The notes beneath the pieces are model-generated. The model did not search any database. It saw nothing but the letters and a program-made list of their open reading frames with translations, and was not told the DNA's origin. A stretch of DNA of 64,000 nt. Source: a virus. Made by a program: the position numbers and the translations under genes. Below are positions 6,634-43,992 of the stretch, in pieces. Every line of letters begins with the position of its first letter. The first letter of the stretch is position 1. The DNA lies in the IMG/VR virus record IMGVR_UViG_3300031520_000001, positions 1,415 through 65,414 of that record; one strand, 5' to 3'.

Positions 6634-6697
6634 AACAAAAAAAGAGTGTATGAGGAAATTTCCTCATACACTCACCCAATAATTGCTAGTTAAGTGT
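6631..6697 (-). promoter_or_regulatory. putative terminator/antiterminator switch, copy B (upstream of decoration and capsid genes)
   Basis: Sense ACACTTA-ACTAGCAATTATTGGG-TGAGTGT overlaps a 13-bp stem GAGTGTATGAGGA/TCCTCATACACTC followed by T7. Confidence 0.6.
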
Positions 6698-8050: not shown

Positions 8051-8307
8051 TATTTGACTCTCCTTATGCCCTCTTCTACTGGGTGTGTAGTGTGCGTAGA
8101 AGTGAGATCGTAACCACATTCTGGACATGTCTTTGCAGGTTGAGGCAACATCTGCACAACGATGAGAAACACAGCACATGAGAGAGCGGCATTCGTCCAT
8201 TGTCCGCCAGGAAGGAATGTCAGGATGTGCGTAAAGCCTGGAATAAGATAATAGACGAATGCCACAAGTGAGAGAGCGGTAATGCTATTGAGCAGTGTTG
8301 TTTTCAT
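8050..8307 (-). CDS. membrane protein with C-terminal zinc ribbon
   Basis: Two hydrophobic segments then CPECGY. Confidence 0.55.
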   Translation of the reverse strand: MKTTLLNSITALSLVAFVYYLIPGFTHILTFLPGGQWTNAALSCAVFLIVVQMLPQPAKTCPECGYDLTSTHTTHPVEEGIRRVK

Positions 8308-8798
8308 GCGGTCTTGCCTTTCGGATAAAACTGCCCACGTCGTCGCCGCCACGCATAGTCACGGTTGCCAAGCGTGATATGTAGTGGCCCAACGCGTATC
8401 ACACGCACAAACAGATGTGAACCAATATCATAGCGTCCAGCATGTTCCCTCCAGTGCGTGAAAGCCCACTTCGGTACCACACGCATATGAACAGGCCATA
8501 GCATCACTTTGTCTTTCGCGTCCCATTGCCTGCCACAGGACGAACAGGTGTAGCGTTTGAACGTCACGCCGCGCTCGGTTGTTTGGTAGCAGGTGAGCTT
8601 GCCAGATACACAGTATACGCATAACGTAAGCCATATATTAACGCCGCGCTCGGTTGTTTGGTAGCAGGTGAGCTTGCCAGTGTGCAACATGCGCGTATTT
8701 TGTGGGTTACAGGTGATACATAACGGGTGCTTGTTCATTTTCTTTTCTCGTTTATGCCATGCTCGGTACTTGATTGGCTTCATCGGCTCTTTCCTCAT
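8304..8798 (-). CDS. zinc-ribbon protein carrying an in-frame 75-bp duplication/insertion
   Basis: CITC...CSSC; peptide GKLTCYQTTERGV occurs twice; start uncertain. Confidence 0.5.
   Translation of the reverse strand: MRKEPMKPIKYRAWHKREKKMNKHPLCITCNPQNTRMLHTGKLTCYQTTERGVNIWLTLCVYCVSGKLTCYQTTERGVTFKRYTCSSCGRQWDAKDKVMLWPVHMRVVPKWAFTHWREHAGRYDIGSHLFVRVIRVGPLHITLGNRDYAWRRRRGQFYPKGKTA
8566..8680. repeat. perfect 40-bp direct repeat (8566-8605, 8641-8680) flanking a 35-bp insert identical to 43585-43619 (reverse complement)
   Basis: Repeat acgccgcgctcggttgtttggtagcaggtgagcttgccag; insert atacacagtatacgcataacgtaagccatatatta. Confidence 0.95.
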
Positions 8799-8952
8799 GT
8801 CCAGGTGTCGCTAGAATGGGCAACAGGTTGGGCACGTCGGTCTGCTTGACCTGTGTCTTTATTTTCACAGGAGCTTTGAGGATCGGTGCAGCATCGCGTC
8901 CTGTCTTGGCTCCAATGGCTTGCTGTTTCTTCATACGCGTCTTGATGCTCAT
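8752..8952 (-). CDS. hypothetical basic protein
   Basis: 66 aa, coupled to upstream ORF. Confidence 0.45.
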   Translation of the reverse strand: MSIKTRMKKQQAIGAKTGRDAAPILKAPVKIKTQVKQTDVPNLLPILATPGHEERADEANQVPSMA

Positions 8953-9128
8953 TGTGTCACCTTTAGTAGTTGCAATATCTCTGACGCAACGGCAATCATG
9001 AGATGTTTGTTGTTTTCAGGAACATCTTTCCACGGCACGGCACTTGCCTTGCGTGTTTGGTAATTGTAGAGAGGAGCTAATAGCTCGTAGGTCTCGTGAA
9101 ATTTCTGTGCTAATTCTTCTGCTGTCAT
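8949..9128 (-). CDS. hypothetical phage protein (59 aa)
   Basis: Manual translation MTAEELAQKFHETYELLAPLYNYQTRKASAVPWKDVPENNKHLMIAVASEILQLLKVTQ*, overlapping start/stop junctions. Confidence 0.65.
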   Translation of the reverse strand: MTAEELAQKFHETYELLAPLYNYQTRKASAVPWKDVPENNKHLMIAVASEILQLLKVTQ

Positions 9129-9376
9129 GAAGCTTTCCTCCTTCGTTCCTCACGTCTATACGCTTGCCATATATCGCTCTGTGCATCGTCATACGCTTTG
9201 TAAATGTTTGTCACTATGGCGAACAGCAGCAGCACATCTTTGAGACTGCACACGTCTTGTTCTAAGTGATGTATCAGGCGCAACACATTACGACCTATCT
9301 GTGCGTCAAATACGCTGTCCGTGTCGATCATGCCTTGACGCTCTAACCACGCGTGGGCGAATTGTGCGAGAGTCAT
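9125..9376 (-). CDS. hypothetical protein
   Basis: 83 aa, coupled ORF. Confidence 0.55.
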   Translation of the reverse strand: MTLAQFAHAWLERQGMIDTDSVFDAQIGRNVLRLIHHLEQDVCSLKDVLLLFAIVTNIYKAYDDAQSDIWQAYRREERRRKAS

Positions 9377-9741
9377 ACAGGTCTAAAAAATGATGAGGAT
9401 TTTTGTGCGTCCTCTTGCTGTTTGCGAGCAATGCCCACATGCTCGCTTGTGGCTTTGAGCAACGTTGCAACAAGTGGTAACATGACCAATGCATCGTGTG
9501 GCTGCTTCTGTGCTTTGAGCATCTCTTCAACAAGGTGATAGGCCAGTTCGTCCGCTTTGTCGAGTACGGTGTCAATTTCATACCCAGCATCGTACAAATC
9601 TTGCATATAAGGCTGTAGTTTGCGAATAAGTTTTCGCTCTGGGTGAAGTTCATCGAGCGTCACCTTCGCAAGTTCTTTGCCATCAATCTCAATGATGATG
9701 GATGTATTTGGCTGACATCCACTGACATTAAATGTGTTCAT
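9373..9741 (-). CDS. hypothetical protein
   Basis: 122 aa, coupled ORF. Confidence 0.6.
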   Translation of the reverse strand: MNTFNVSGCQPNTSIIIEIDGKELAKVTLDELHPERKLIRKLQPYMQDLYDAGYEIDTVLDKADELAYHLVEEMLKAQKQPHDALVMLPLVATLLKATSEHVGIARKQQEDAQKSSSFFRPV

Positions 9742-10082
9742 ACGTTATTTTCCCCTTTGGTTGCTTGTGTAACTTGTTGTGGTTGTGTTCTTGGCGAAAT
9801 ATATACTTCTGTAGAGAGTTCGCAATACCAATTGTTGCGCTCTATCTCCACAAAGAGAAGTTGGATTGTGCGTCCATTGCGAAACGTGAAAGACCATGAT
9901 TGCTGATTTTGCTTGACGCCAAATGTATCACGTGGTTCCATCAGGCGGATAAGCACCTCTTGGATATCGTCAAATGACCACTCTTTGACTAAGAGGATGT
10001 ACCATGTGACGAATTGCACAATCGGTTGCTCTTTATTAGCCCTAAAGAAATCGAGTGTGCTACTTCCCTGAATTGCTGCCAT
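9738..10082 (-). CDS. hypothetical protein
   Basis: 114 aa, overlaps portal 3' end. Confidence 0.55.
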   Translation of the reverse strand: MAAIQGSSTLDFFRANKEQPIVQFVTWYILLVKEWSFDDIQEVLIRLMEPRDTFGVKQNQQSWSFTFRNGRTIQLLFVEIERNNWYCELSTEVYISPRTQPQQVTQATKGENNV

Positions 10083-11814
10083 TTTTCACCCCTTGTTTTT
10101 GTGGATCAGCATTGTGTGATCCGTTCGGCTGTTGCTGAGTATCGCTCGGTTGCGGTTTCGTGACCTGTGCGAGCTTGATCGCGTGGTCTTGTTGCTGTTG
10201 CAACTGTGCTTGCTCTTGCTTCTGTTGTGCGTCGAGTTGCGATTGTAGCTCGGTCAATTCCTCATCCGAGAAACCAGCATCGGCAAGTGCGAACGGTAAC
10301 GGTGCGCCTGAACTTGTTGCTGCTTGCACACCAAGCCACAACGCTTGCTTCTCTTGCGCTATCTCTAGTTTCGTCGGCACCAACAAAGGCCGAGGCATAA
10401 TCGCCATGTCGAGATTACCTGATGCGTAGCTGGTCAGGTCGAATGGAGTAAACTTTTGTTGTTGCTTATTGAGCTTGCCCCATACACCACTATTGGCGCG
10501 AAATCCAGCGATAGCGACGACCATGCGTTGCATCGAGACGGTGCCTTGATCGTAAATCGCTTGCGCTTCTGTGAGACGCCCTACGACATCCGAGGCGATA
10601 CGTGCAGCCCCAGGCCCTGTCACTTGTGTCATCTCGCGCAACTCTCGATTAAAGGCGAGTTCAGGATGATCGGCCTCAATTTCTTTGATGAGATGTTGCA
10701 TGTAGGCAGCAGCATCGGCAAGGTTCAAGTCACCTGCGAGGCTATCCACTTTTCCATTTTCAGGCCCTTTGAGCATCAAGAGTGATTCTTCTTCAGCCGC
10801 CTGTGGGGTATCGTATTCGTTGGTAAGACCACGCTTAGAGCCTCCAAACAACTTGCCAACACTGCCACTACTCCACATGACTAAAGGCGCACCAATCTTC
10901 TTGTGTATCTGGTCGTGGACATGTGAGGCAAGATTGTTGAGTTCGTCAATCTTGCCGAGACTTCCAGCGATGGCAGGTGTGCCATGATTGCCGCCCACGT
11001 CCTGATGTTTTATCCACATGGCAGGACAAAACGTATACGGATGCGACACCACCGTGCCATTGCCATAATCGAATGGTTCATGGTCTTTGAAATACTGAAT
11101 GGTCATATCATCAACAACTTTGGTAAAGACATACGTCGTACCATCGTCTTCTCTGACGCTATACTCAATCATGTAGAGTTTGACGTTCCCTGCGCCATCG
11201 AGTTCTAAATCGTAGATAAATCCAGGCCACACAATGTCAGCAGTCACCACACCGCTTTCAACATCATCAACAATCTCGACAAGTACGCTTCCAAGTGCCG
11301 CGCCAAAGCGTACTAAGAGTCCTTTTTTTGCTTGCCAGTTGCTCCATTGCCAGAATTGCGCGATAGCGGATTTCAGTGCAGGGTCGGTATCTTCTGCGAA
11401 GGGAATAGCGAGCGACACCCCATCGGGCAAGGTCTTGCCATCTTCGGACAACACGCCAGGGTAGACATTTCCTGCGTAGAAATCGACTAAGCGACGAGTG
11501 GGATTGTAAATCGGGCGAATGTTGCGATAGAGGTTGTAATTGCTCTTATAAGCTGAGAATGGATTATAGGGATACATCGGGGTTGCGCTATTGCCGTAGA
11601 GATGATACGACATGGCGGTCTGGACCGTGCGGTCAAACACACTGCTATTATAGTACGCCCACAGGAGGCTATACTGTTGCTGCTGAGAGACAAAACTACG
11701 CTGTTGATAACTTGTAGCAGGGTCCTCATACGGACGCAGTGCGTAGTTGATGCCAGAGTTCAATCCGTTCTGTATCAGGTTTAAGCCGTTGTTGACCATG
11801 CCCATAATTCCCAT
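10060..11814 (-). CDS. portal protein
   Basis: 584 aa directly downstream of terminase large subunit; coiled-coil C-terminus. Confidence 0.85.
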   Translation of the reverse strand: MGIMGMVNNGLNLIQNGLNSGINYALRPYEDPATSYQQRSFVSQQQQYSLLWAYYNSSVFDRTVQTAMSYHLYGNSATPMYPYNPFSAYKSNYNLYRNIRPIYNPTRRLVDFYAGNVYPGVLSEDGKTLPDGVSLAIPFAEDTDPALKSAIAQFWQWSNWQAKKGLLVRFGAALGSVLVEIVDDVESGVVTADIVWPGFIYDLELDGAGNVKLYMIEYSVREDDGTTYVFTKVVDDMTIQYFKDHEPFDYGNGTVVSHPYTFCPAMWIKHQDVGGNHGTPAIAGSLGKIDELNNLASHVHDQIHKKIGAPLVMWSSGSVGKLFGGSKRGLTNEYDTPQAAEEESLLMLKGPENGKVDSLAGDLNLADAAAYMQHLIKEIEADHPELAFNRELREMTQVTGPGAARIASDVVGRLTEAQAIYDQGTVSMQRMVVAIAGFRANSGVWGKLNKQQQKFTPFDLTSYASGNLDMAIMPRPLLVPTKLEIAQEKQALWLGVQAATSSGAPLPFALADAGFSDEELTELQSQLDAQQKQEQAQLQQQQDHAIKLAQVTKPQPSDTQQQPNGSHNADPQKQGVKNGSNSGK

Positions 11815-11816
11815 CT

Positions 11817-13394
11817 TTAGTATCCTCTAAAATTCTGTAGAGCGTTTACGGTGTTTTCGTCCATCTCATCTACCATTGGACTGGTTACCGCGTCAGCTGC
11901 CATGCTCACATTGTCGACAATATCGTCATGAGCACCCATCGGAAATGTCAGTAATTCGCTTTCAACATCGTTCAGCCAAGACGCGCTTTTAAGAAAATAG
12001 AACTTGCCATTTTCCATCCAAATACTTGCCGTGCTCGCTCGCGACACTTTATCTTTGACAGGTCGATATTCTTCACATGGCACGCCACGCACAAGAAGTT
12101 GCTGAATGAGTGCGAGTTGATAGCCAACGGACTCTATGCGGAAATAATCAGGTCGGTAGCGTTGATGGAGAAGTTCAATTTGTTTCTGCTGAGAAGGATT
12201 ATCGAAACGATCACGAACGAGGTCTATCAGCAATAAATCATTTTCGTTGGTCAATGCCCATATCGCAATTACCGTGTAATCTGCTGTTTGCTTAGAGGAT
12301 ACTGCAAGGTCAACCGTTCCAAAGATGCTACAGTGATTTTTGAACAACGAGCGTGTGCCGTTTGGCGTTTCCATAATGTACGCTTCTTGCGTCTCGCCAA
12401 AGTAGCGAAACCACTGCTTGCGAAATTGACCACCACCACTAGGCACTGGCGATTGCTGATATTGCGCTGCATAGCCAACGGAGCCAAGATCACGTTTATA
12501 TCGCGTCAGTGTTGCATCGTTAAAGCGTTCAGGCCAGAGCAATTGGCCTTCCTCAGTACGCCAATCAGACCAGCCGATACGTGTGTAACATTTTCGTGTT
12601 GGCTCGTACTCAGCAGGCAGATTAAGATGTGTCCAGTCTGGACGCTCTTTGATAATCACGCCTGATACATCCTCTTCATGGATGCGCTGTCCAATAACGA
12701 GCATCACGTCTTTATCAGCATCGTTCATGCGGTTTGACCATGTTTCACGGAACCACGTTACTGCCGATTCACGTTCCATCTGGCTATGTGCTTCTGTTGC
12801 TGAATGCGGATCGTCTATCAACAGTTTTGAACCGCCCTCACCTGTTGTGGTACTTCCAACGGAAACCGCCAACTGATAGCCCATCTTATCGTTCATAAAA
12901 AAGCGTTTCGCGTTCTGTTGCTCACTGAGTCCAAAGTCGCGTTCTCGCTCAAAATGCACTGACGCCGACTCAGAAACAATCGAAAGCTCACTTCCATAGC
13001 GATCTTGAAACCAGCGCGACTCTATCAGATTGCGCTTTTTGAGGTTGTCACGAATAGCGAGGTTGAGGCCATAGGAGGCACACAGGAACCTATCAGCAGG
13101 ATTGCGGAGCCAACACCACACAGGCCATAACACGCTGCATATGGTACTCTTACTGTGCCTTGGAGGAATGTTGATCAAGAGGAAGCGAAGTTGCCCGGTA
13201 GTTAAGGCGGTAAGATGATCACATATCGCATCGACAACATAACCATCCTGAAAGTGTTGAGGTTCTATGATAGACCATGCGCCAACAACAAACGCTTTGA
13301 GCGAGCGTCGCATTTCCTCAGCTTCTGCCATCGCAAGCAGTGCGTCACCTAACGAGAGAGTTTGTGTTGAGGAAGGAACATGGAATCGCGTCAC
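11817..13394 (-). CDS. terL: terminase large subunit
   Basis: NIPPRHSKST Walker A variant, LLIDDPH Walker B, VDLA...DYT and HDDIVD nuclease motifs. Confidence 0.95.
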   Translation of the reverse strand: MTRFHVPSSTQTLSLGDALLAMAEAEEMRRSLKAFVVGAWSIIEPQHFQDGYVVDAICDHLTALTTGQLRFLLINIPPRHSKSTICSVLWPVWCWLRNPADRFLCASYGLNLAIRDNLKKRNLIESRWFQDRYGSELSIVSESASVHFERERDFGLSEQQNAKRFFMNDKMGYQLAVSVGSTTTGEGGSKLLIDDPHSATEAHSQMERESAVTWFRETWSNRMNDADKDVMLVIGQRIHEEDVSGVIIKERPDWTHLNLPAEYEPTRKCYTRIGWSDWRTEEGQLLWPERFNDATLTRYKRDLGSVGYAAQYQQSPVPSGGGQFRKQWFRYFGETQEAYIMETPNGTRSLFKNHCSIFGTVDLAVSSKQTADYTVIAIWALTNENDLLLIDLVRDRFDNPSQQKQIELLHQRYRPDYFRIESVGYQLALIQQLLVRGVPCEEYRPVKDKVSRASTASIWMENGKFYFLKSASWLNDVESELLTFPMGAHDDIVDNVSMAADAVTSPMVDEMDENTVNALQNFRGY

Positions 13395-13921
13395 TTCTGC
13401 TCACCAGCTTTCAATTCTTTTGCAAGGACTTTGAGTGTGGCAAGTTGCTCAGAGGAAAGAGAACGAGGGTCAATGTTGATCACATTTTGCGATCGGACCT
13501 GTGCATTCACATGAGCATTCACATCTACTTGTGATTTCTCTCGATACTTTGCCATGCGAGACTTCGCCAATAACGTGAGCATCGCATCACTTTTTCGCGT
13601 GGCATAGCAGACAAGTTTTCCTGCACTCACTTGAGGCTCTTCCCATCCAACAACTGCACGTTGATAAATCTCATGATCTATAGCACCATCGGCTTGGATT
13701 TCAGCTATGCGATATTCCTCTGCAAAGTCTTCATATCGTTCTTTCCAGTCGTATGGAGTGTCGATATGTATCCCTGCAACTCTACACGCCTCACTCATAT
13801 TTCCCTCATCACGAAACGTCGCAAGAAATACCTCTTGTGCTTTCTTGCGTTCCTTCGCGCTCATTCGTTGTCCCTGCCTTCGCGCGTGTAGGGGTGTAGG
13901 AGTTTCGGACTGTGCGCTCAC
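13391..13921 (-). CDS. terS: terminase small subunit
   Basis: HTH (GNMSEACRVAGI..T.YDW), EI..RA..GWEEP...SD.ML..LAK pattern, upstream of terL. Confidence 0.85.
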   Translation of the reverse strand: MSAQSETPTPLHARRQGQRMSAKERKKAQEVFLATFRDEGNMSEACRVAGIHIDTPYDWKERYEDFAEEYRIAEIQADGAIDHEIYQRAVVGWEEPQVSAGKLVCYATRKSDAMLTLLAKSRMAKYREKSQVDVNAHVNAQVRSQNVINIDPRSLSSEQLATLKVLAKELKAGEQK

Positions 13922-13936
13922 TTCTGCCTCGCAGAC

Positions 13937-14002
13937 AACAAAAAGGACGCACTCTCGTTTCTTCTGGTGAGAGTGCGTCTGTCAATAGAAATAACTAGAC
14001 GC
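13937..14002 (-). promoter_or_regulatory. putative terminator/antiterminator switch, copy C (late operon leader upstream of terS)
   Basis: Sense GCGTCT-AGTTATTTCTATTGAC-AGACGC overlaps an 11-bp stem GACGCACTCTC/GAGAGTGCGTC followed by CTTTTTG. Confidence 0.6.
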
Positions 14003-14019
14003 TATGAATTACTGAATAG

Positions 14020-14048
14020 AGTATACAGGAGAATGCAGAGATTGTCTA
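14020..14048 (-). promoter_or_regulatory. putative sigma70-type late promoter
   Basis: TAGACA-17 bp-TATACT immediately upstream of the attenuator-like leader. Confidence 0.6.
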
Positions 14049-14303
14049 TTGTAGGCCACGTTCTCGCAGTGTCGCGCGTTTGCCCGCGCGTATTGCGTCT
14101 GGAATGCGCACGTCGTACTGACAGCGCACTTTCTGAAATTCGCCTTTCCACTTGGAAAATATCACATCAATGTTATCATGCTCTTTGGTCAGCGCGAGAA
14201 TAAGCCGCGCCACTGCTAACGCTCGCTGAAAATCAAAATCATCCTCATCATGATTGCGTACTACTGATAATTGGGGCGGCATAAGTCTGTCCTTAATTTC
14301 CAT
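14046..14303 (-). CDS. hypothetical protein directly upstream of the late promoter
   Basis: 85 aa; its TAG stop forms part of the -35 hexamer. Confidence 0.55.
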   Translation of the reverse strand: MEIKDRLMPPQLSVVRNHDEDDFDFQRALAVARLILALTKEHDNIDVIFSKWKGEFQKVRCQYDVRIPDAIRAGKRATLRERGLQ

Positions 14304-14392
14304 AACACGATAAAAGAAGTCTCAGGAAATTCTCATACTACTCATAGAACGCATGAGCTAGGGATATATAACAGATTGTCTTATGTAAGACT

Positions 14393-14800
14393 TCAACGAT
14401 GTAACAACTCAGGATTATCATGCACATTCCCAACAACGAGCGCATATTCAGCATGGCGATACATCGGTTTGAATTGACCTTCGTCATCTTGTGTGACACC
14501 TTGCATCACGCCAAATCCTCCTGGCAATTGCGGTTGTGGCTCACCATCAGATGTTTGATAAAACTCCTCTGGTGTCAGTGCGTTCCACCATGCGCGTTTA
14601 TATTCGACAACACGAATGTTGTCATACACCTTGATAATGTCATGCTCATATATCTCAGTTCCCATCGCGTCGTTGAGGCCGATATATTGCCCAACGGTTT
14701 CTCTCTCGACTAATGCCCAAAATTGCTCCCAAGCGTCATTCTCAGAATCAACATGCCACCAATTCCCTTGCACTTTACCGCGAAACTTGATTATTCTCAC
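14393..14800 (-). CDS. YopX family protein
   Basis: IKFRG..., TVGQYIGL.D..G.EIYE.DI, V.GNVHDNPELL signatures. Confidence 0.9.
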   Translation of the reverse strand: MRIIKFRGKVQGNWWHVDSENDAWEQFWALVERETVGQYIGLNDAMGTEIYEHDIIKVYDNIRVVEYKRAWWNALTPEEFYQTSDGEPQPQLPGGFGVMQGVTQDDEGQFKPMYRHAEYALVVGNVHDNPELLHR

Positions 14801-15129
14801 GCTTGCACCTCCACGCCGAGCATCTTCGCTTGCTCTCGTATCTCATCAATCTCATAGGATTGATTGCAGTGATTGTACTCCTCTTCAATGGTGTGACACA
14901 TCGGAGCCATGAGAGACAATGAACGAGCCAGCAACGCTCGTAACTGCCCGTTCTCTTCCTGGTCGGACACCAGCATCTTGACGATGATATCGCTCTCCAC
15001 CCAAATACCACTAACACCTTCGATGTGAAGCTGATTCTGCGTCGTATTCTTTTCGTCTACTACCGCCATGATACGACGATAGAGACGTTGAGGAATGCGG
15101 TCAAGCTGTATCATGATATGGCTACTCAT
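14797..15129 (-). CDS. hypothetical protein
   Basis: Start at ATG 15129 coupled to upstream stop. Confidence 0.55.
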   Translation of the reverse strand: MSSHIMIQLDRIPQRLYRRIMAVVDEKNTTQNQLHIEGVSGIWVESDIIVKMLVSDQEENGQLRALLARSLSLMAPMCHTIEEEYNHCNQSYEIDEIREQAKMLGVEVQA

Positions 15130-15296
15130 TGCGCCTCTTTCTCTTTGCGTTTCCTCTTGCGCTGCTGTAATCTTCGTCGTGTGGCATCGACGACCAGCCA
15201 ATTGATAGACCGATCTTCCTGTTGTGCGAGCTTGTGTAATTCGTCTCGCATCTCAACAGGAAAACGGATAGTATTTTCATAGAACTCTTGTTTCAT
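15126..15296 (-). CDS. Arc-like ribbon-helix-helix DNA-binding protein
   Basis: Manual translation MKQEFYENTIRFPVEMRDELHKLAQQEDRSINWLVVDATRRRL...; divergent from the recombinase. Confidence 0.7.
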   Translation of the reverse strand: MKQEFYENTIRFPVEMRDELHKLAQQEDRSINWLVVDATRRRLQQRKRKRKEKEAQ

Positions 15297-15466
15297 GCTA
15301 GTACTCTACAATCATGTTGCTAGTGCTCATCATAACAGGAAATTGAGCGGAATGGAAGAGGATTACAGGTAGCAAAAATGCATGAAAATGTGTTATAATA
15401 GGGTATAGAAAAGAGTAATTAAAGATACATTTTCTTACTCTGTCAAAAATGACAAGAAGGAGAACG

Positions 15467-16372
15467 ATGAGTAGCCTCATTCCTTACTCAGTAGGCTTTG
15501 ATACCAGTATTCTTGCTGGCAACGTTGCGCCCTCTTCCCTGAAAATGTACGAACGTGATTTCAAGACGTATCTCAATTTTGCGGTAACGCCCGAACTTGC
15601 TATTGAAGCATCGACGCTTGCACAATGGAGGACACATCTAGTCACTACCACGTCGCTTTCGCCCAACACCATCAATCGTATGTTATCCGCAGTCAAGACG
15701 CTCATGTTAGAGGCAGAGGAACAAAAGTATGTTCCAAAGGGTACAGGGGAAGACTTCAAGCATATACGAGGCGTAAAAGTTGGCGCATTAAAAGAGAGAC
15801 GTAAACCTCACGCTCGCACCCGTATAGAGCCTGAGAGTATGCGTATGCTCACAAGTCTCCCAGACCCCCTTACGCTTACTGGCATACGTGACTATGCCAT
15901 TCTGCACATGCTGGCAAGTTCGGGACTACGTGTTCGTGAACTGGCAACGTTGACCATAAAACGCTTGCACAAAACCGATAAGGGGTATCAGGTGGAAGTC
16001 ATGGGAAAGAATGATACCGAATGGAGGAAAGCCCCACTTTCCAAAGAGGCATACGACGCGATACAAGAATGGTTAAGAAGACGCACGATTCAGTCTGACT
16101 ACATCTTTACAGGTTTTGGAGGAAAAGGCAACAGACCCAAAGTAGAACCGATGACAGAGATATCCATCTGGCGTATCGTGAAATTCTATGCAGATCAATG
16201 TGGGCTGGAATATATTCGACCTCATGACTTTAGGAGATTTGTCGGGACACAGCTTGCAAAGAAAAGCCCTCGTGATGCACAGAAAGCACTAGGACATAAG
16301 AACATCTCGACCACGATGGATAACTATGTCTTAGACGAACTTGAAGTTGGCATAACTGACAATTTGTACTAA
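15467..16372 (+). CDS. int: tyrosine recombinase (XerC/D-type integrase or resolvase)
   Basis: Catalytic set GLRVREL, PHDFRR, LGH, TTMDNY; AAGGAG RBS before ATG 15467. Confidence 0.9.
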   Translation: MSSLIPYSVGFDTSILAGNVAPSSLKMYERDFKTYLNFAVTPELAIEASTLAQWRTHLVTTTSLSPNTINRMLSAVKTLMLEAEEQKYVPKGTGEDFKHIRGVKVGALKERRKPHARTRIEPESMRMLTSLPDPLTLTGIRDYAILHMLASSGLRVRELATLTIKRLHKTDKGYQVEVMGKNDTEWRKAPLSKEAYDAIQEWLRRRTIQSDYIFTGFGGKGNRPKVEPMTEISIWRIVKFYADQCGLEYIRPHDFRRFVGTQLAKKSPRDAQKALGHKNISTTMDNYVLDELEVGITDNLY

Positions 16373-16436
16373 GGAGCAACTATGTTAGAAATGACAAGTC
16401 GCGACGCCGAGACAGCGCGACTCTTGTGACTCCATT

Positions 16437-16667
16437 CTACATACTTTTTATAGACCCACTGTAACCTTGAAGAGATGATGGTTCTTTGCTGTAACCCCGT
16501 GGATACGTGTGGTGTATCATCCACTGCAACACAGTGAATCGTTCCATCTGTGAGAAGTCAGGTATCTCTATTTTATTGGAGCGCACCTGATATGTGCATC
16601 CATCATAAGTGACTTGTCGCTTAGACTGTTTCACGTTTTTCTCATGCCTGGAGAGTGCCAGGCGCAC
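16437..16667 (-). CDS. hypothetical protein
   Basis: 76 aa, co-oriented after the AAA ATPase. Confidence 0.45.
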   Translation of the reverse strand: MRLALSRHEKNVKQSKRQVTYDGCTYQVRSNKIEIPDFSQMERFTVLQWMIHHTYPRGYSKEPSSLQGYSGSIKSM

Positions 16668-16677
16668 ACTAACGGGA

Positions 16678-17604
16678 TTATGCTACTTTTGCCAATTGTG
16701 CTTGAATGACTTTGTTCAAGGCGTCCAGATGCGATTGTGTCAAGTCTGGATCAGCGATTTGCACACCAAGAATATACGCCTTGAACTTTGTCCACCGTGT
16801 ATCAATCTCGTTGTCAGCAATCTTATAGGCCGTTGCCCATTCAGACCGTGCTTTGTCGATGAGCGACGGTGCTAGTGGCTCCTCAACAGGTGCAGGTACA
16901 CCAGATAGCCACTCTTTGAGGATGTCGGCAACCTTTGTATCAGGTTTTGCTATTGCTTTTCCTGAGAGGGCACTACAACGTGACTTCTGCACAAGCATCG
17001 TATTGTCGTAGTCCATTTCAAAAAAGCAATCGAATTCGTATTCCAAATCTTGACGTTGTACAGGTGCCATACCGACTTTACGCGGCGTTGATTTCCCTGT
17101 ACGTTCGTCACGCTCTAAAGAATATTCTTGCTTCGAGCGCATGGTACAAATGATATGAAGCTTTGACCGTGTGATAGCGTCTATGAGACGGTTCTGGATG
17201 GGCGTTGCTTCTCCCCAGGCCGTAAAGCTATTGCCACTCTTAGAGCGTTTGGTGATAGCCTCCACAATCTCTAAGAGTCCGCCTGGACCGTTCCACGCAT
17301 GAGACAAGCTATCAATCAACAAGACTTCATAGCCGCCTTCCTCGGCATCTTTAATGCCTTGAATGAACTTATCGGGATGATACGAATCAAGCTCCATCAC
17401 ATCAAACTCAGGGAATTGGTCGGCATACTTTGAAGCTGAACCGCGTTCTGTATCAATCACGGCAACCTTACCAGAGTCGGCAAGCCCAAAGGCAAGCGTA
17501 AGACCCGTGTATGTTTTCCCTGTACCGGATGGACCTGCGATAGCAATACGGCCCTTTGCCGCAAATTTCGTCGCTTTCTTAAAGGTCATTTTCGTATCCT
17601 CCAT
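16678..17604 (-). CDS. AAA_24 / Sak4-like ATPase (phage recombination)
   Basis: GPSGTGKT Walker A, IDTERGS, LLIDSLSHAW, IICTMRSK, EYEFD motifs. Confidence 0.85.
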   Translation of the reverse strand: MEDTKMTFKKATKFAAKGRIAIAGPSGTGKTYTGLTLAFGLADSGKVAVIDTERGSASKYADQFPEFDVMELDSYHPDKFIQGIKDAEEGGYEVLLIDSLSHAWNGPGGLLEIVEAITKRSKSGNSFTAWGEATPIQNRLIDAITRSKLHIICTMRSKQEYSLERDERTGKSTPRKVGMAPVQRQDLEYEFDCFFEMDYDNTMLVQKSRCSALSGKAIAKPDTKVADILKEWLSGVPAPVEEPLAPSLIDKARSEWATAYKIADNEIDTRWTKFKAYILGVQIADPDLTQSHLDALNKVIQAQLAKVA

Positions 17605-17645
17605 GCGGCCCTTGCGAGCCGCGCTATTCTACGATGATGTATTTA

Positions 17646-17912
17646 TTAATCTTTTTCGGGAACATCAATAACAACTGTTGTGACGCAATGCGTGTAGCCA
17701 AACGTCTCAAATTCTGTGTTGTACACTTGTGTCTGGACTGACACCAGTTGCTCACGAGTCACGTCTTGCAAGAGGTCATCCACTGCATAGGCTGTACGAG
17801 TGCATGCGTCTTGCCCATTGCGGTCAACGTTGTAGTAAATGAATGTCTGTAACATGTGTAGGTCTCCTTCGTCTTCTAAACTTACTTTCAAATCTATCGT
17901 CTCAGAGCGCAT
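17646..17912 (-). CDS. hypothetical protein
   Basis: 88 aa ORF in the leftward early operon. Confidence 0.5.
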   Translation of the reverse strand: MRSETIDLKVSLEDEGDLHMLQTFIYYNVDRNGQDACTRTAYAVDDLLQDVTREQLVSVQTQVYNTEFETFGYTHCVTTVVIDVPEKD

Positions 17913-18057
17913 GGGAACGGCTCATGCGCTCGTATCGTTCTCAGTCATCCGGCGTACACCAAAGCTATCAACATCGCTCTGATGCGTAATGCTCGTACCT
18001 CTTGGCTGTGGAGCCAGATGGCGAGATATTCGCTCGCCATCATCTCTTGTACGCTCA

Positions 18058-18399
18058 CTACGCCACCTTCCGATGCTGTATCTCATACATGCCGATCATG
18101 CTGAGACATGCAGCGATCAAGCGAGGACTTTCGATGCTACACGTCGCATTGTGGTTCTCATCCATGTAGACCACGAAGTAACGCTGGTAGCACTTGCTCT
18201 GTACCAAATAGTACAGGTCGCCAGCCTTGAGGTAGACACCAGCCGCGATCATGTCGCGTTTGGCTCGGCTCTTGATAACAGGCTCGGTGCTCCTGGTGAT
18301 CTCTACCGTCTCGCGGTAGACGGAAGAGGCAAAACGTGTGTCGCGCAGCAGATTGGCGGCTGTTCGGCGGCTGATTGCGTGTGCGCTTCTATGTCCCAT
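18058..18399 (-). CDS. hypothetical protein
   Basis: 113 aa, AAAGGA RBS, first gene of leftward early operon. Confidence 0.6.
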   Translation of the reverse strand: MGHRSAHAISRRTAANLLRDTRFASSVYRETVEITRSTEPVIKSRAKRDMIAAGVYLKAGDLYYLVQSKCYQRYFVVYMDENHNATCSIESPRLIAACLSMIGMYEIQHRKVA

Positions 18400-18514
18400 G
18401 TGTTAGAATTCCTTTCGGTACCGCAACGCTCCATCTTCATTTGATGCGTTCCGGCTATTGGCTCAACCGCTTCTCAATGTGGAGGCGGTTTGTTTTGTCT
18501 CTCGACTTGTTATA

Positions 18515-18600
18515 AGTATACGACACTTCCATGTATTTGTCAAGTGTTTTTCTTACGAATATTGGAAGTGCTTGAAAATTAATGAAAGATAGTGTATAGT
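18515..18600. promoter_or_regulatory. divergent sigma70-type promoter pair
   Basis: Minus TTGACA-17-TATACT (18543-18515); plus TTGAAA-17-TATAGT (18572-18600); inverted CACTTCC/GGAAGTG boxes between them. Confidence 0.7.
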
Positions 18601-18640
18601 GTTCAGCAGAACATAAGAGCACACAGAGAGGGCTATCTTT

Positions 18641-18955
18641 ATGAACATCGCAGACATAAAAGTAAAGGACTTAACCGATTCAGACGGGGCATCAACTGTA
18701 CTATCAGACCGATTTCACAAGGATTACAGCGTGGATAGCGTCCATCAGTTGGTAAAGAAGGGACGTTTACGAGCGTGGATATTCCAGAAAGGCGTCCTAG
18801 TTGAGCGCACGCCAGAAACACAGACGCGCGGCAAAGACTTACTTTTTCTCTTTTCAGATCTACAAGCAGTTCCACTTCCCCGCAAGGCTGGGCGTCCAAA
18901 GGAAACGAGCGCGCGCGATGTTATCACGTATTCCCGCAAAAGCAAAGTTAGCTAA
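18641..18955 (+). CDS. MerR/excisionase-like HTH regulator with AT-hook-like tail
   Basis: YSVDSVHQLVKKGRL helix pattern, LLF..SDL, RKAGRPK. Confidence 0.6.
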   Translation: MNIADIKVKDLTDSDGASTVLSDRFHKDYSVDSVHQLVKKGRLRAWIFQKGVLVERTPETQTRGKDLLFLFSDLQAVPLPRKAGRPKETSARDVITYSRKSKVS

Positions 18956-18990
18956 CTTTCGTCAAGTCTGAAAATTCATAGCAAAAAGCC

Positions 18991-19019
18991 TTGACATATT
19001 ATCGTAAGTGGTGTATTAT
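18991..19019 (+). promoter_or_regulatory. early promoter
   Basis: TTGACA-17-TATTAT. Confidence 0.7.
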
Positions 19020-19067
19020 ATAAACATCGAGAGAGGACACGAGCCTCCGAGAAAGCGAGAAAAAAAT

Positions 19068-19271
19068 ATGAACAAATTTACCGAGAACGAAATCAAGGAT
19101 GCTGAGTTTGCGATCCTGACTGCAATTGCAGTCAGAAATTATGCGCGTGCTGTTGAACGCAAACGAGGACCGTTGACCGACGCAGAAGTATTGGAGCGTG
19201 TTTCTGCTGAGGAGAAAGAGCGCTTCATTCGTGGAAAAGCTCTTCATAAGGCTGGTGCATATCGCCCATAG
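19068..19271 (+). CDS. hypothetical early protein
   Basis: ATG at 19068 downstream of promoter; 67 aa. Confidence 0.6.
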   Translation: MNKFTENEIKDAEFAILTAIAVRNYARAVERKRGPLTDAEVLERVSAEEKERFIRGKALHKAGAYRP

Positions 19272-19380
19272 GATGAAACGTTTTTGATGACCGTATCAAT
19301 GAGGATGGCGAACTAGAAAAATTACAATAATAAAAGTTGAGTAGCGGGTGGGCAATGCTCACCCAGGAGGATGAGAGACG

Positions 19381-19620
19381 ATGAAACTAGAGCAAGCATT
19401 ACAAGAGACCGGTATAGCCGAGATATATTACGATGGTTACACAGCCACAGTACGCGACGGTCAAGGCGAGAATGACGACAAATTTCGCCTGAGTATACAA
19501 AGCGGCGGAATGCCGCCGCACTACAGCAAGGACCTTGACACGGTTGAACAGGTTGAGCAAGAGATGGGCGACACTCACGCGCCCAAGCCTCTTGCCTGGA
19601 CAGCGGTTGACCCCGAATAA
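19381..19620 (+). CDS. hypothetical early protein
   Basis: 79 aa; AGGAGG and stem-loop upstream. Confidence 0.6.
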   Translation: MKLEQALQETGIAEIYYDGYTATVRDGQGENDDKFRLSIQSGGMPPHYSKDLDTVEQVEQEMGDTHAPKPLAWTAVDPE

Positions 19621-19732
19621 CGAGCGCAGGGCTGGCGATGTGCCAGCCCTCATACATCAACTGAGAAACTTCATCGAATTGATGATGCAAAGTGAAACAA
19701 AAGTAAGTACACTAGAATAAAAGGAGAGTATT

Positions 19733-19921
19733 ATGTCAATAGGTTACACAGGTTGGACATGCACGCAGTGTGGAGAAGAAGTTGATGGACCAAATGATTT
19801 GGCCCATGTATGCCCACCGGGGACACCAGAACCATCGAAGAACGAGTACGTCAACATCACAGGAACAGAGTTCGATCTCCTGACACCAGAAGGGACATTT
19901 TTCTTGCCTCCTGAAGAGTAG
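19733..19921 (+). CDS. small zinc-binding hypothetical protein
   Basis: CTQC...HVC; AAGGAG RBS. Confidence 0.6.
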   Translation: MSIGYTGWTCTQCGEEVDGPNDLAHVCPPGTPEPSKNEYVNITGTEFDLLTPEGTFFLPPEE

Positions 19922-19935
19922 CAAATCTTCCATCA

Positions 19936-20030
19936 AGAGCGCGTCAGTCGAAACCAACGCGCTCTTTCTCAGAGCAATGACCTCAATTGCGCTCACTGCT
20001 CTTTGGTACAATAAGCAAGAGAGAAATGAG
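19936..20030 (+). promoter_or_regulatory. double-dyad promoter cassette, copy 1
   Basis: Two inverted repeats with 14-nt loops followed by extended -10 TGGTACAAT. Confidence 0.6.
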
Positions 20031-20065
20031 CAATTTGGACGTAGAACAGGAAAAGGAGTGAGACG

Positions 20066-20329
20066 ATGAACACATTACAGGGCACTATTCTTAATAGTGA
20101 TTATGAAAGATTCGAAGAAGTATTTCCAGAAGGCTCGAAAGTTCGTTGTGAGTGCGAATGGCAGCCAAGAAAATGGATGAATGGCATTGTCTCGCATCAC
20201 AAGAATAATGCATATGGAATGCCGCAATGGATTTTTATTGAGATGGAGGATGGTTCCTCTGCGGAGTACGATTACCGCTATATTGACGTGGAAGACTTCC
20301 GCAATTCTCTTGTACGTCCGGTAAAATAG
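20066..20329 (+). CDS. hypothetical early protein
   Basis: 87 aa; AAGGAG RBS. Confidence 0.6.
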   Translation: MNTLQGTILNSDYERFEEVFPEGSKVRCECEWQPRKWMNGIVSHHKNNAYGMPQWIFIEMEDGSSAEYDYRYIDVEDFRNSLVRPVK

Positions 20330-20339
20330 GGAAAAAGAA

Positions 20340-20657
20340 GTGCCAATTATTGAGATAGAGGTAAAACCGTTTAGCACGAGCGACGTGATTGTCGCCCTCA
20401 AATGTGGTCATATCAAGGATGGTTCTTTTGTCTCTTCCAAAAATGGAGACCTGTACAAGCATCCAGAATTGATGAAATTCGCACGCAAAAGTACCTCTAG
20501 TAAATTTGGTAAAGCATCCTACACAGAAAATTGGATGCTTACCATCCCAGATGATTGTCCAGTGGCAATTGCGGCTTATCGCCGCACTGGTGCTGGTTCC
20601 GTAAAAACAGAATTTATCTATGAGGTAGTGTTTGTTCCTGTATCGGAGAGGCAGTAA
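20340..20657 (+). CDS. hypothetical early protein
   Basis: 105 aa ORF. Confidence 0.6.
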   Translation: MPIIEIEVKPFSTSDVIVALKCGHIKDGSFVSSKNGDLYKHPELMKFARKSTSSKFGKASYTENWMLTIPDDCPVAIAAYRRTGAGSVKTEFIYEVVFVPVSERQ

Positions 20658-20662
20658 CGAGC

Positions 20663-42208: not shown

Positions 42209-42396
42209 CGTTCTAACTATTTTCCCTGAATGTGCTCTATGATTATCCAAACACATCAATAGAAAACACGTCCAAAGTGACGTGAGCACAGTAGAGCAAA
42301 AAGCGCGGTTGACGTGAAGCGAGACGTAATGATTACAATGCCTTTAGTAAGCCTTACGTATGGCTTACCTTAACTGAGATATGGAGGTGACAATTT

Positions 42397-43170
42397 GTGA
42401 CGCATATTATTTCGGCGAACTCGATTAAAGGCGGTGTCACGAAGACGACAACGAGTATTAATCTTGCGGCGGGTCTCGCTTTGAAAGGCCGTAAAACGCT
42501 CATCATAGACCTGGACCCGCAATCAAACACGACGTACACCCTGCTTGGACTGCTCTCGGAAGAAACACAACACACGCTCTATGAAGTGATTATTGAGAGT
42601 AAACCACTTGCCTCAATCATCCAGCCAACGAAGGTGCCGAATTTGTGGATAGCACCCGGAACGCTTGCACTCTCTGACGCCGATCTTATTTTGTCAGGAC
42701 GTACAGGCCGCGAATGGATACTGAGAAACGCGCTTGAGGAATATTTACGCACGGTCTCACTCGACTACGTGATTATCGACACGCCCCCAAATCTCAATTT
42801 GTTAAGCGTGAATGTCCTTACAACCTGTACAGGCTATATTGTGCCGATTGCCTTAACGCTTTATGCCACGCTTGGCCTGACGTTGCTCACCAAGACAGTG
42901 AAGACACTAGAGCGCAATTTACGCATCACTATTCCCCGGATTGGTGCTGTCGCTGCACTCATGGAAAACACGAACGAAGCTCGCTCACGCCTTGAGGATG
43001 TGAAAGAGTATTTCGGTGATGAGCTATTTCAGTCGATCATTCCGCGTAACACCGATGTCGATAGAGCCAACGATAGACGTATTTTGTATCAGTATGCGCC
43101 ACGTTCCGCCGGAGCCATCGCATACGCCAATTTTGTGGAAGAGGTCGTGAACCGTGTCGAGAAAAAATAA
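42397..43170 (+). CDS. parA: ParA family partition ATPase
   Basis: KGGVTKTT deviant Walker A, IDLDPQSN, YVIIDTPP, IPRN; no N-terminal HTH (type Ib-like). Confidence 0.95.
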   Translation: MTHIISANSIKGGVTKTTTSINLAAGLALKGRKTLIIDLDPQSNTTYTLLGLLSEETQHTLYEVIIESKPLASIIQPTKVPNLWIAPGTLALSDADLILSGRTGREWILRNALEEYLRTVSLDYVIIDTPPNLNLLSVNVLTTCTGYIVPIALTLYATLGLTLLTKTVKTLERNLRITIPRIGAVAALMENTNEARSRLEDVKEYFGDELFQSIIPRNTDVDRANDRRILYQYAPRSAGAIAYANFVEEVVNRVEKK

Positions 43171-43540
43171 TGAGGAACGAAGTAACCCGCTTAAAAGTTT
43201 GTTGCAAAGTACTGATAAACAGGAGATTACCGCTATGCCTCCACCTGCACAAGTGCCACAACAACAGAAGGACGCGATAAATCACGTCCCTACAGATGTA
43301 CCGAAACCTGTACGTCCTGCTCCACCGGAGACACGTCAAAGGACTGGCAAGAAGTTTACGGAACGCTATGTACAGGAAACCTACTACACTGATAAGCGGC
43401 TGGTCCCCTACTTGTACCAACTCATAGAAACCTATCCATCAAAAACGGCAATGGCAACAGAGATGATCGTCCTTGCCTGTAAAGTGCGTGGAATTGAGAT
43501 ACCGGAGGACTGGCAGAAGCAAACCTACCCAGAGGAATAG
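43154..43540 (+). CDS. small ParA partner (putative centromere-binding protein)
   Basis: Disordered N-terminus and short C-terminal beta-alpha-alpha-like segment, overlapping parA. Confidence 0.65.
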   Translation: MSRKNNEERSNPLKSLLQSTDKQEITAMPPPAQVPQQQKDAINHVPTDVPKPVRPAPPETRQRTGKKFTERYVQETYYTDKRLVPYLYQLIETYPSKTAMATEMIVLACKVRGIEIPEDWQKQTYPEE

Positions 43541-43548
43541 ATACTGAG

Positions 43549-43579
43549 AGGCTATGTAAAAATTACATAGCCTTTTCTT
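43549..43579 (+). terminator. intrinsic terminator of the par operon
   Basis: aggctatgtaa/ttacatagcct stem followed by TTTCTT. Confidence 0.75.
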
Positions 43580-43992
43580 ATCGTTAATATATGGCTTACG
43601 TTATGCGTATACTGTGTATAACTTGTTCGTAACTTGTGCATAAGTAAGATGTAAATAAGGAATACGTTTGTTGAGATTTACGCGTAAATAGGAGTTACTT
43701 TGTATAGTGCAAATATGGGGTATACATTATGCTTAAAGCATGTTGCGTAGAATGGGCGTCATGTGGCTTTGAGCAGGTAGCGATGAGGATTATATGTCGC
43801 AAGCTAAAATTTACGTGAGCATCATTCTAGCAAATATTTTACTTGCGACTGTTGCGGGAACGAATCCTTGTCATGCGCTTACTTCAACCTCTTAATCTTG
43901 TGTCTTATTAATAAATATCATATGATACGACTTGAAATGATATAAAATATAGTGTATGCTCCTACTATCAAATACGGAAGGGGGTACGATGA

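What the first reader, a model, noticed from the sequence alone, without database searches (positions are those of the whole stretch)
8566..8680. Repeat-spacer-repeat scar: 40-bp duplication around an exact 35-bp copy of the par-locus intergenic DNA
Seen: two identical 40-bp repeats (8566-8605, 8641-8680) enclose a 35-bp AT-rich insert that is the exact reverse complement of 43585-43619, 35 kb away, just after the par operon terminator. The match extends 3 bp into the second repeat (to 43582), so a 37+38 bp split is equally valid. The 75-bp addition keeps the host ORF in frame. Established: Cas1-Cas2 integration inserts a 30-40-bp fragment and duplicates a repeat-length target, and type I-D uses a 5'-GTN PAM; the donor is preceded by GTT on the matching strand. 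Inference: a fossil off-target spacer integration into the phage itself, or a microhomology template switch. The insert also carries the TATGGCTTAC box found at the parA operator, so it could act as a transplanted partition site.
Basis: partly seen in the sequence, partly recalled or inferred. Interest (0 to 1): 0.85.

Follow-up and report, generated by a model that had tools for sequence, protein, structure and literature searches.

The report
Spacer-sized self-insertion scar in phage gene
A wild phage carries a real, polymorphic 75-base in-frame insertion (a piece of its own DNA flanked by a duplicated target) whose exact geometry recurs in a related phage and fits a CRISPR spacer-inserting enzyme that hit the phage instead of the CRISPR array.

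Summary
8566-8605 and 8641-8680 are identical, and the 35 bp between them (38 with the ambiguous ACG) is a perfect inverted copy of 43582-43619, just after the par terminator.

The structure is not an assembly artefact. In three public runs from two studies, k=31 contigs bridge both junctions, at full depth in two runs. A contig 100% identical over 16.5 kb lacks exactly these 75 bp, so an empty site exists.

The host ORF is a conserved Cys-rich (zinc-ribbon-like) gene, and its homologue in a relative also lacks the insert.

- About 2 Mb of related phages hold only one other clean scar. It is a 37-bp duplication plus a 38-bp insert, again 75 bp.
- A third relative carries a genuine mini-CRISPR array with 37-nt repeats and 36-37-nt spacers.

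This favours a ruler-type integrase, most likely host Cas1-Cas2 acting off target (about 0.6), over a template switch.

The host, its cas genes and its PAM remain unknown. The type I-D assignment and the "transplanted partition site" idea are not supported.

This scan has noted more than 60 similar scars on other DNA, including one other phage case, so this is a new member of a known, mostly laboratory-documented kind.

The parts
8566..8605 (.). Left copy of the duplicated target (R1). It is 40 bp as observed, or 37 bp (8569-8605) if the shared ACG belongs to the insert.
   Evidence: exact duplicate of 8641-8680; present once in the empty-site contig L003.
8606..8640 (.). Inserted fragment X. 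It is 35 bp, or 38 bp (8606-8643) with the ambiguous ACG. It is a perfect inverted copy of the par-downstream DNA.
   Evidence: 38/38 identity to 43582-43619 on the opposite strand; absent from L003.
8641..8680 (.). Right copy of the duplicated target (R2).
8304..8783 (-). Host gene: a conserved Cys-rich (CxxC ... CxxCGRxW, zinc-ribbon-like) protein of unknown function. It is 159 aa with the insert and 134 aa without. The insert lies between the two CxxC knuckles.
   Evidence: P0001 against P0002; a 132-aa homologue (34-35% identity) in related phage G403 aligns without the 25-aa insert; no Pfam or PHROG family.
43582..43619 (+). Donor (protospacer-like) sequence in the intergenic region after the par operon. 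Its flank is GTT on the strand that matches the insert as read on the window + strand.
   Evidence: It overlaps a weak promoter-like match at 43584-43613 and one TATGGCTTAC box at 43590-43599.
43546..43576 (+). Intrinsic terminator of the par operon, directly upstream of the donor.
42397..43540 (+). par operon: ParA ATPase (42397-43170) and a small 128-aa partner ORF (43154-43540).
   Evidence: AAA_31, CbiA and ParA families; the partner has no Pfam family.
42326..42368 (+). Three 11-bp GTAAnnnTTAC-like boxes upstream of parA (a likely operator). One related box lies in the donor and so also in the insert.

Best explanation
The structure is a scar of off-target spacer integration.

Proposed mechanism (inferred):
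1. While this temperate, plasmid-like phage resided in its host, the host's CRISPR adaptation integrase (Cas1-Cas2, from a system with about 37-nt repeats) captured a 38-bp fragment of the phage's own DNA next to the par terminator.
2. It inserted the fragment into an ordinary site of the phage genome instead of the leader-proximal CRISPR repeat.
3. Two staggered attacks 37 bp apart, followed by gap filling, duplicated the target.
4. The product is target-insert-target, 37+38 = 75 bp. It reads as 40+35 because three bases happen to be shared.

Shown here:
- The structure, its donor and the empty site.
- Read support for both junctions.
- Recurrence of the same geometry in a related phage.
- A 37-nt-repeat CRISPR array in the same phage family.

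Inferred only: the enzyme.

Because 75 is a multiple of three and the insert has no stop in frame, the conserved gene stays open. The allele persists in several samples and genomic backgrounds.
For: 1. Geometry. A 37-40-bp duplication plus a 35-38-bp insert, with clean junctions and no terminal inverted repeats.
2. Exact donor in the same replicon.
3. Empty site in a contig 100% identical over 16,544 bp. A homologue in G403 also lacks the insert.
4. Both junctions are present in reads of three runs from two studies, at full depth in two of them.
5. Unbiased scan for non-tandem repeat-insert-repeat structures. It covered 0.92 Mb around portal homologues and 26 whole related phage records (1.48 Mb).
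   - It found only one other clean case, L086:4643-4754: an exact 37-bp duplication plus a 38-bp insert, also period 75.
   - Two independent events sharing period and split are very unlikely without a molecular ruler.
6. The L086 insert is only 89-91% identical to the nearest sequence in its own complete genome. This suggests capture of a free fragment from a related element, not copying in cis.
7. Related phage G413 carries a genuine mini-CRISPR array at L197:3903-4086, with 37-nt repeats, 36- and 37-nt spacers and a degenerate last repeat. The family therefore lives with CRISPR systems of this size.
8. One junction has no microhomology at all.
9. Synechocystis type I-D has 37-bp repeats, a 35-36-bp spacer mode with a 5-6 nt spread, and Cas1-2 alone integrates (PMC5896167). 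Off-array integration with repeat-length duplication is in print for E. coli (Nivala et al. 2018, as cited in PMC7054753 and bioRxiv 10.1101/148544).
Against: - The host is unknown. The only hint is a 57%-identical portal in Thermosporothrix, a Ktedonobacteria.
- No host cas genes, arrays or PAM could be examined.
- No Cas1 or Cas4 is encoded by these phages.
- The duplicated target is not a known CRISPR repeat. It gives no Rfam CRISPR-DR hit and is absent from IMG/VR and JGI metagenome contigs.
- It resembles the G413 repeat only weakly: 6 of the first 8 bases in one orientation, p about 0.02. The L086 target does not resemble it.
- One junction has a 3-bp overlap (ACG), expected by chance only about 3% of the time. 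That is what a microhomology-primed switch would leave.
- The donor copy ends 9-12 nt before a strong hairpin, which could stall a polymerase.
- The L086 scar has no read-level check.
Confidence: 0.6

Rival explanations
1. Replicative template switch (FoSTeS/MMBIR-like). A nascent strand left the ORF, copied 35-38 nt of the par-downstream DNA, then returned 37-40 nt behind its point of departure, priming on the ACG microhomology.
For: - 3-bp microhomology at the insert/repeat junction.
- The donor lies on the same replicon.
- The copied stretch ends 9-12 nt before a stable terminator hairpin that could stall synthesis.
Against: - The other junction has no microhomology.
- The donor is 35 kb away and inverted.
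- A switch has no reason to give the same 37+38 = 75 geometry twice in two phages.
- It would not readily copy a sequence that is only about 90% like anything in the L086 phage's own genome.
- No other sizes of clean duplicate-plus-insert events were seen in about 2 Mb of relatives.
Confidence: 0.15
2. A different ruler-type integrase or repair process (host- or phage-encoded, not Cas1-Cas2) makes staggered cuts about 37 bp apart and captures fragments of about 36-38 bp.
For: - Same geometry in two related phages.
- Earlier scan note e1-3342317 reports similar scars uncorrelated with cas1 in one genus (not checked here).
- No host cas genes could be shown.
Against: - No such enzyme is known.
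- No Cas1-like or Cas4-like gene is in the phages.
- The geometry equals that of a real CRISPR array found in the same phage family.
Confidence: 0.12
3. Staggered double-strand break, fill-in of long overhangs and end-joining that trapped a stray 35-38-bp fragment.
For: Clean junctions with 0 and 3 bp of overlap are compatible with end joining.
Against: - No nuclease is known to leave 37-40-nt overhangs.
- A repeat of the exact geometry in L086 is unexplained.
Confidence: 0.05
4. A functional element, not a scar: a phage mini-CRISPR unit that makes a guide RNA, or a transplanted ParB-binding site.
For: - The insert holds one copy of the 10-bp box shared with the parA operator region.
- A relative does carry a true mini-array.
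Against: - The flanking 'repeat' is coding sequence of a conserved gene, single-copy in the empty allele.
- It has no CRISPR-repeat features or fold.
- The 'spacer' would target the phage itself.
- One box is far fewer than the three at the operator.
- No RNA data are available.
Confidence: 0.04
5. Assembly or library artefact.
For: The window is a metagenome-assembled virus record.
Against: Junction-spanning k=31 contigs occur at full depth in independent runs of two studies. R and X stand at twice the flank depth in X2.
Confidence: 0.01

Closest known systems
Non-canonical (off-target) Cas1-Cas2 spacer integration, or 'neo-CRISPR' units (Nivala, Shipman and Church 2018, Nat Microbiol; cited in PMC7054753 and bioRxiv 10.1101/148544)
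   Same: A spacer-length insert flanked by a repeat-length duplication of a non-CRISPR target, with clean junctions. The insert comes from DNA present in the cell.
   Different: - Seen here in a wild phage genome, not in E. coli over-producing Cas1-Cas2.
- The geometry is 37+38, not 28+33.
- The insert comes from the target replicon itself.
- The enzyme and host are not identified.
Canonical spacer acquisition by systems with 36-37-nt repeats, e.g. Synechocystis type I-D (PMC5896167) and Thermus I-B, I-C and III arrays (PMC10989782)
   Same: A unit of a 37-bp repeat plus a 35-38-bp spacer. GTT next to the donor would fit the I-D GTN PAM.
   Different: - The target is not a CRISPR repeat and has no leader.
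- The subtype cannot be assigned.
- The second scar's true donor, and so its PAM, is unknown.
Virus-borne mini-CRISPR arrays and solitary repeat units (Medvedeva et al. 2019, PMC6858448; Camara-Wilpert et al. 2023, PMC10651486)
   Same: Repeat-spacer-repeat units in a virus genome. A relative of this phage (L197:3903-4086) has such an array.
   Different: In those elements the repeats copy the host's CRISPR repeat and the spacers target competing viruses. Here the 'repeat' is a duplicated piece of a phage gene and the 'spacer' matches the phage itself.
Templated insertions with duplication from fork stalling and template switching, or microhomology-mediated break-induced replication (own knowledge)
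   Same: A short copy of distant DNA sits inside a short duplication, with 3-bp microhomology at one junction.
   Different: There is no microhomology at the other junction, and the size recurs exactly in a second phage.

Membership tests
Off-target Cas1-Cas2 spacer integration (neo-CRISPR unit) | Direct duplication of the target equal to the acting system's CRISPR repeat length | tested here: inconclusive
   The duplication is 37 bp (40 with the ambiguous ACG). It is 37 bp exactly in the second scar. The mini-array of related phage G413 has 37-nt repeats. The array of this phage's own host was not seen.
Off-target Cas1-Cas2 spacer integration (neo-CRISPR unit) | Insert of spacer length with clean junctions and no terminal inverted repeats | tested here: met
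   The insert is 35-38 bp here and 38 bp in L086. Spacers in the related array are 36-37 nt.
Off-target Cas1-Cas2 spacer integration (neo-CRISPR unit) | An identifiable protospacer donor and an empty-site allele | tested here: met
   Exact donor at 43582-43619. Empty site in L003, 100% identical over 16.5 kb.
Off-target Cas1-Cas2 spacer integration (neo-CRISPR unit) | Recurrence at independent sites with the same geometry (ruler) | tested here: met
   The L086:4643-4754 scar is 37+38 = 75. It is the only other clean event in about 2 Mb of relatives.
Off-target Cas1-Cas2 spacer integration (neo-CRISPR unit) | cas1-cas2 present and active in the cell where it happened | not testable with these tools
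   The host is unidentified. There is no Cas1 or Cas4 in the phage records. A sample of 401 Chloroflexota genomes gave no portal homologue and no array with the related repeat ends.
Off-target Cas1-Cas2 spacer integration (neo-CRISPR unit) | PAM of the acting system next to the donor | tested here: inconclusive
   GTT precedes the donor on one strand, a 1-in-16 chance for GTN. The system is unknown, and the donor of the second scar is not exact.
Bona fide CRISPR array or virus mini-array | The repeat is a CRISPR repeat, shared with host arrays and not part of a gene | tested here: not met
   The repeat is coding sequence of a conserved ORF and is single-copy in the empty allele. It has no Rfam CRISPR-DR match and is absent from IMG/VR and JGI metagenome contigs.
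Template switch (FoSTeS/MMBIR) | Microhomology at the switch junctions | tested here: inconclusive
   3 bp at the insert/repeat junction and 0 bp at the repeat/insert junction.
Transposable element with target-site duplication | Terminal inverted repeats or a transposase, and a short fixed duplication | tested here: not met
   The 35-bp insert has no inverted ends and is a copy of intergenic DNA. The 37-40-bp duplication is outside known transposon ranges (the ranges are own knowledge).
Partition site of a ParA/small-partner (type Ib-like) system | An array of repeated boxes bound by the centromere-binding partner | not tested
   One 10-bp box lies in the insert, against three 11-bp boxes at 42326-42368. 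No binding data exist, and the partner protein has no recognisable family.

The most novel reading that the evidence does not exclude
In this family of soil and rock phage-plasmids, the host adaptation integrase repeatedly writes spacer-sized pieces of the phage's own or related phages' DNA into the resident phage genome. Such neo-units would be a natural source of in-frame protein insertions. They could also be the birth stage of the virus-borne mini-CRISPR arrays seen in a relative (L197:3903-4086).
Probability: 0.2. Interest if true: 0.8.

Novelty: new member of a known kind. Interest (0 to 1): 0.6.

Why it matters
Off-array spacer integration is documented mainly in E. coli over-producing Cas1-Cas2. 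Natural cases are few and circumstantial.

Here both alleles (filled and empty) are caught in wild populations, and the donor is known to the base. The same 37+38 geometry recurs in a related phage, and a relative carries a real array of matching size. That makes this one of the cleaner natural candidates.

If the reading is right, three things follow:
- CRISPR adaptation is a mutagen of mobile elements, not only of chromosomes.
- It can lengthen conserved proteins in frame.
- It may seed new repeat-spacer units on viruses.

The case also gives a concrete target and prespacer pair for a biochemical test.

Tried and rejected
**Relatives and homologues of the locus**
- Near and protein searches of the ORF region and the par region against the phage and plasmid collections found no relatives of the ORF or of either region's DNA.
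- Exact scans for the insert and for the repeat core in IMG/VR and JGI metagenome contigs found nothing. The repeat is therefore not a CRISPR repeat in those collections, and the insert is not seen as a spacer there.
- ParB-like and ORF protein scans of IMG/VR found nothing.

**Host identification**
- The terminase scan of genome contigs was empty.
- DnaB gave only about 39% identity to many phyla.
- Terminase and ParA tblastn gave at most 38% identity to diverse taxa.
- The protein atlas returned viruses only.
- Portal against plasmids gave one weak hit.
- The Thermosporothrix portal is not on record as a contig.
- A sample of 401 Chloroflexota genomes held no portal homologue. It held only single chance matches to the related repeat's ends, at control level.

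**Other attempts**
- A single-sequence AlphaFold model of the 134-aa protein was too poor to use (pLDDT 39).
- The spacers of the G413 mini-array hit none of the fetched phages.
- Similarity of the two duplicated targets to the G413 repeat is weak.
- The Nivala 2018 paper itself is not held.

**Rejected readings**
- Assembly chimera.
- Transposon footprint.
- cos-end fill-in: the site is 5 kb from terS, and no phage is known with 40-nt cohesive ends (own knowledge).
- CRISPR escape mutation: both flank-repeat junctions stay intact.

Full report
**1. Observation**

The window is most of a 67.5-kb IMG/VR virus record, estimated 78% complete.
- Positions 8566-8605 and 8641-8680 are identical 40-mers.
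- The 35 bp between them, plus the first three bases (ACG) of the second copy, are a perfect inverted copy of 43582-43619.
- A full self-comparison shows these are the longest dispersed exact repeats in the window.
- The 75 added bases sit in the minus-strand ORF 8304-8783 and add 25 codons without a stop.
- The donor lies in a 450-bp intergenic region. It starts just after the intrinsic terminator (43546-43576) that ends a ParA plus small-partner operon.
- GTT precedes the donor on the strand that matches the insert.
- The 10-bp box TATGGCTTAC in the insert also occurs at 42359-42368. There it sits among three 11-bp boxes just upstream of parA.

**2. Real or artefact**

Three public rock-metagenome runs from two studies hold this phage. 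Their k=31 contigs include one unitig across the repeat/insert junction (8576-8635) and one across the insert/repeat junction (8614-8670).

| Run | Junction depth | Flank depth | Other |
|---|---|---|---|
| X2 | 80 and 83 | 86-94 | repeat 161, insert 169 (about twice the flanks) |
| X3 | 43 and 46 | 32-50 | |
| X1 (possible source) | 10.8 and 5.4 | 16.6 | repeat only 19, so probably a mixture |

In X2 almost every genome copy therefore carries the structure. It is not an assembly chimera.

**3. Empty site and ancestry**

- The only other protein of this ORF family at high identity is 134 aa. It equals the window's 159-aa product minus exactly the 25 inserted residues.
- Its contig (ENA assembly, k141, 22.5 kb) is 100% identical to the window over 16,544 bp, except that it has a single repeat copy and no insert.
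- The closest related phage with this gene (G403) encodes a 132-aa homologue at 34-35% identity. It keeps the CxxC ... CxxCGRxW, LWPV and GPL motifs and aligns without the insert.

So the gene is real and conserved, the short form is ancestral, and the insert lies between the two Cys knuckles of a zinc-ribbon-like module.

The filled allele also occurs in a mosaic relative, the Logan contig of run X2:
- 99.99% identical to the window over 8.3 kb;
- a replaced terminase module;
- a portal region at 93.9% identity.

In run X3 the junctions are present next to five nearby substitutions. The allele has therefore persisted and moved between backgrounds. Alternatively, the empty form in the otherwise identical contig is a precise deletion between the 40-bp repeats. 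Either way the polymorphism is alive.

**4. Mechanism: evidence gathered**

No relatives exist in the isolate-phage or plasmid collections. The portal protein, however, has 471 relatives in metagenomes.

I fetched two sets of related phage DNA:
- 70 IMG/VR loci around portal homologues, 0.92 Mb;
- 26 whole related records, 1.48 Mb.

I scanned them for non-tandem, non-low-complexity direct repeats that enclose a short insert. Apart from regulatory repeats and repetitive genes, there was exactly one other clean case.

*The second scar (L086:4643-4754).* It lies in a complete 56-kb phage whose portal is 64% identical to the window's.
- An exact 37-bp duplication encloses 38 bp, again a period of 75.
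- The duplicated piece holds the ribosome-binding site, start codon and first seven codons of a gene. The gene therefore stays intact.
- The insert is only 89-91% identical to the nearest sequence in that phage's own genome. This points to a fragment captured from a related element, although divergence after a self-capture cannot be excluded.

This second event resolves the 40+35 against 37+38 ambiguity in favour of 37+38. Two independent events with the same split are not expected from an unmeasured process.

*The mini-CRISPR array (L197:3903-4086).* The same scan turned up a genuine mini-CRISPR array in another relative, G413.
- It has two identical 37-nt repeats that start GTTGCAAGGG and end CTGAAAG.
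- It has a degenerate third repeat and unrelated spacers of 36 and 37 nt.
- The repeat resembles the 36-37-nt GTTGCAA...GAAAC class used by Thermus type I-B, I-C and III systems (PMC10989782).

Phages of this family therefore meet CRISPR systems whose unit size matches the scars.

None of the phages encodes Cas1 or Cas4, so the integrase would be the host's.

**5. Weighing the rivals**

A template switch is supported by the 3-bp ACG overlap, expected by chance about 3% of the time. It is also supported by the hairpin 9-12 nt beyond the copied stretch. Four points argue against it:
- The other junction has no microhomology.
- The donor is 35 kb away and inverted.
- The geometry recurs exactly in a second phage.
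- The second insert is not an exact copy of anything in cis.

An unknown non-Cas ruler enzyme cannot be excluded. An earlier, later-checked note of this scan (e1-3342317) reports that in one actinobacterial genus similar scars do not track cas1.

The duplicated targets are not CRISPR-like. They resemble the G413 repeat only weakly: 6 of the first 8 bases for the window's target in one orientation, p about 0.02, and nothing for L086.

| Explanation | Probability |
|---|---|
| Cas1-Cas2 off-target integration | about 0.6 |
| Template switch | 0.15 |
| Another ruler-type process | 0.12 |
| End-joining capture | 0.05 |
| Functional element | 0.04 |
| Artefact | 0.01 |

**6. What could not be settled**

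The host is unknown.
- The only named relative of the portal is from Thermosporothrix, a Ktedonobacteria, at 57% identity.
- Terminase, DnaB and ParA give only 30-40% identities to many phyla.
- A sample of 401 Chloroflexota genomes held neither a portal homologue nor arrays with the related repeat ends.

Consequences:
- The type I-D assignment is not supported beyond a GTT, and the PAM of the second scar cannot be read.
- A weak, sub-threshold match of ORF 49619-49957 to the AcrIII-1-like family (18.4 bits against a cut-off of 26) hints at a type III host but proves nothing.
- The partition-site idea rests on one box and is untested.
- The insert also carries a weak promoter-like match in the sense direction of the host gene. 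Its effect is unknown.

**7. Comparison and novelty**

- The closest known process is non-canonical spacer integration, shown in E. coli over-producing Cas1-Cas2 and suspected in a few wild genomes (Nivala et al. 2018).
- Canonical systems with 37-bp repeats and 35-36-bp spacers exist, with Cas1-2 alone setting a variable spacer length (PMC5896167).
- Virus-borne mini-arrays are known (PMC6858448). They use true host repeats and target other viruses.
- This scan has already noted more than 60 such scars on other DNA, including one other phage self-insertion. I treated those notes as leads only.

I file this as a new member of a known kind. It is unusually well documented: the donor is exact, both alleles are seen, both junctions have read support, and the geometry recurs in a relative. 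The enzyme remains inferred.

Noticed in passing
L197:3903-4086 (IMGVR_UViG_3300006028_000004, record G413): A related 54.6-kb phage carries a mini-CRISPR array: two identical 37-nt repeats, a degenerate third, and spacers of 36 and 37 nt. The spacers match none of the roughly 100 related loci fetched, and no cas gene is in the record.
   Followed up: partly
L086:4643-4754 (IMGVR_UViG_3300031520_000003, record G402:C1:51296-51407): A second scar: an exact 37-bp duplication (ribosome-binding site, ATG and seven codons) around a 38-bp insert. The insert is 89-91% like G402:C1:33656-33691. There is no read-level check.
   Followed up: partly
L252 (Logan contig of SRR22405847) against window 8651-22195: The strain in run X2 is a mosaic: 99.99% identical over 8.3 kb, terminase module replaced, portal region 93.9% identical. 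It carries an IS605 OrfB/TnpB-like gene, yet it has the same insertion junctions.
   Followed up: partly
window 49619-49957 (+): A 112-aa ORF with a sub-threshold match to PF08960 (STIV B116/AcrIII-1-like; 18.4 bits, cut-off 26). It is a possible ring-nuclease anti-CRISPR.
   Followed up: partly
window 54304-54394: A 30-bp unit repeated three times exactly, inside ORF 54268-54771.
   Followed up: no
window 33256-33293 and 6644-6673: Perfect palindromes of 38 bp (inside the Dam-like methylase ORF 32889-34073) and 30 bp.
   Followed up: no
window 48186-48210 and 49540-49564: The same 25-bp dyad occurs twice, in front of two gene groups. It looks like a shared operator.
   Followed up: no
window 28683-28966: A long run of GGTCTGCTGCTG-type 9-12-bp repeats inside overlapping ORFs (a low-complexity coding repeat).
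   Followed up: no
window 43595-43649: An inverted repeat (12- and 11-nt arms, 32-nt loop) downstream of the par operon. The copied fragment takes only its left arm and part of the loop.
   Followed up: no
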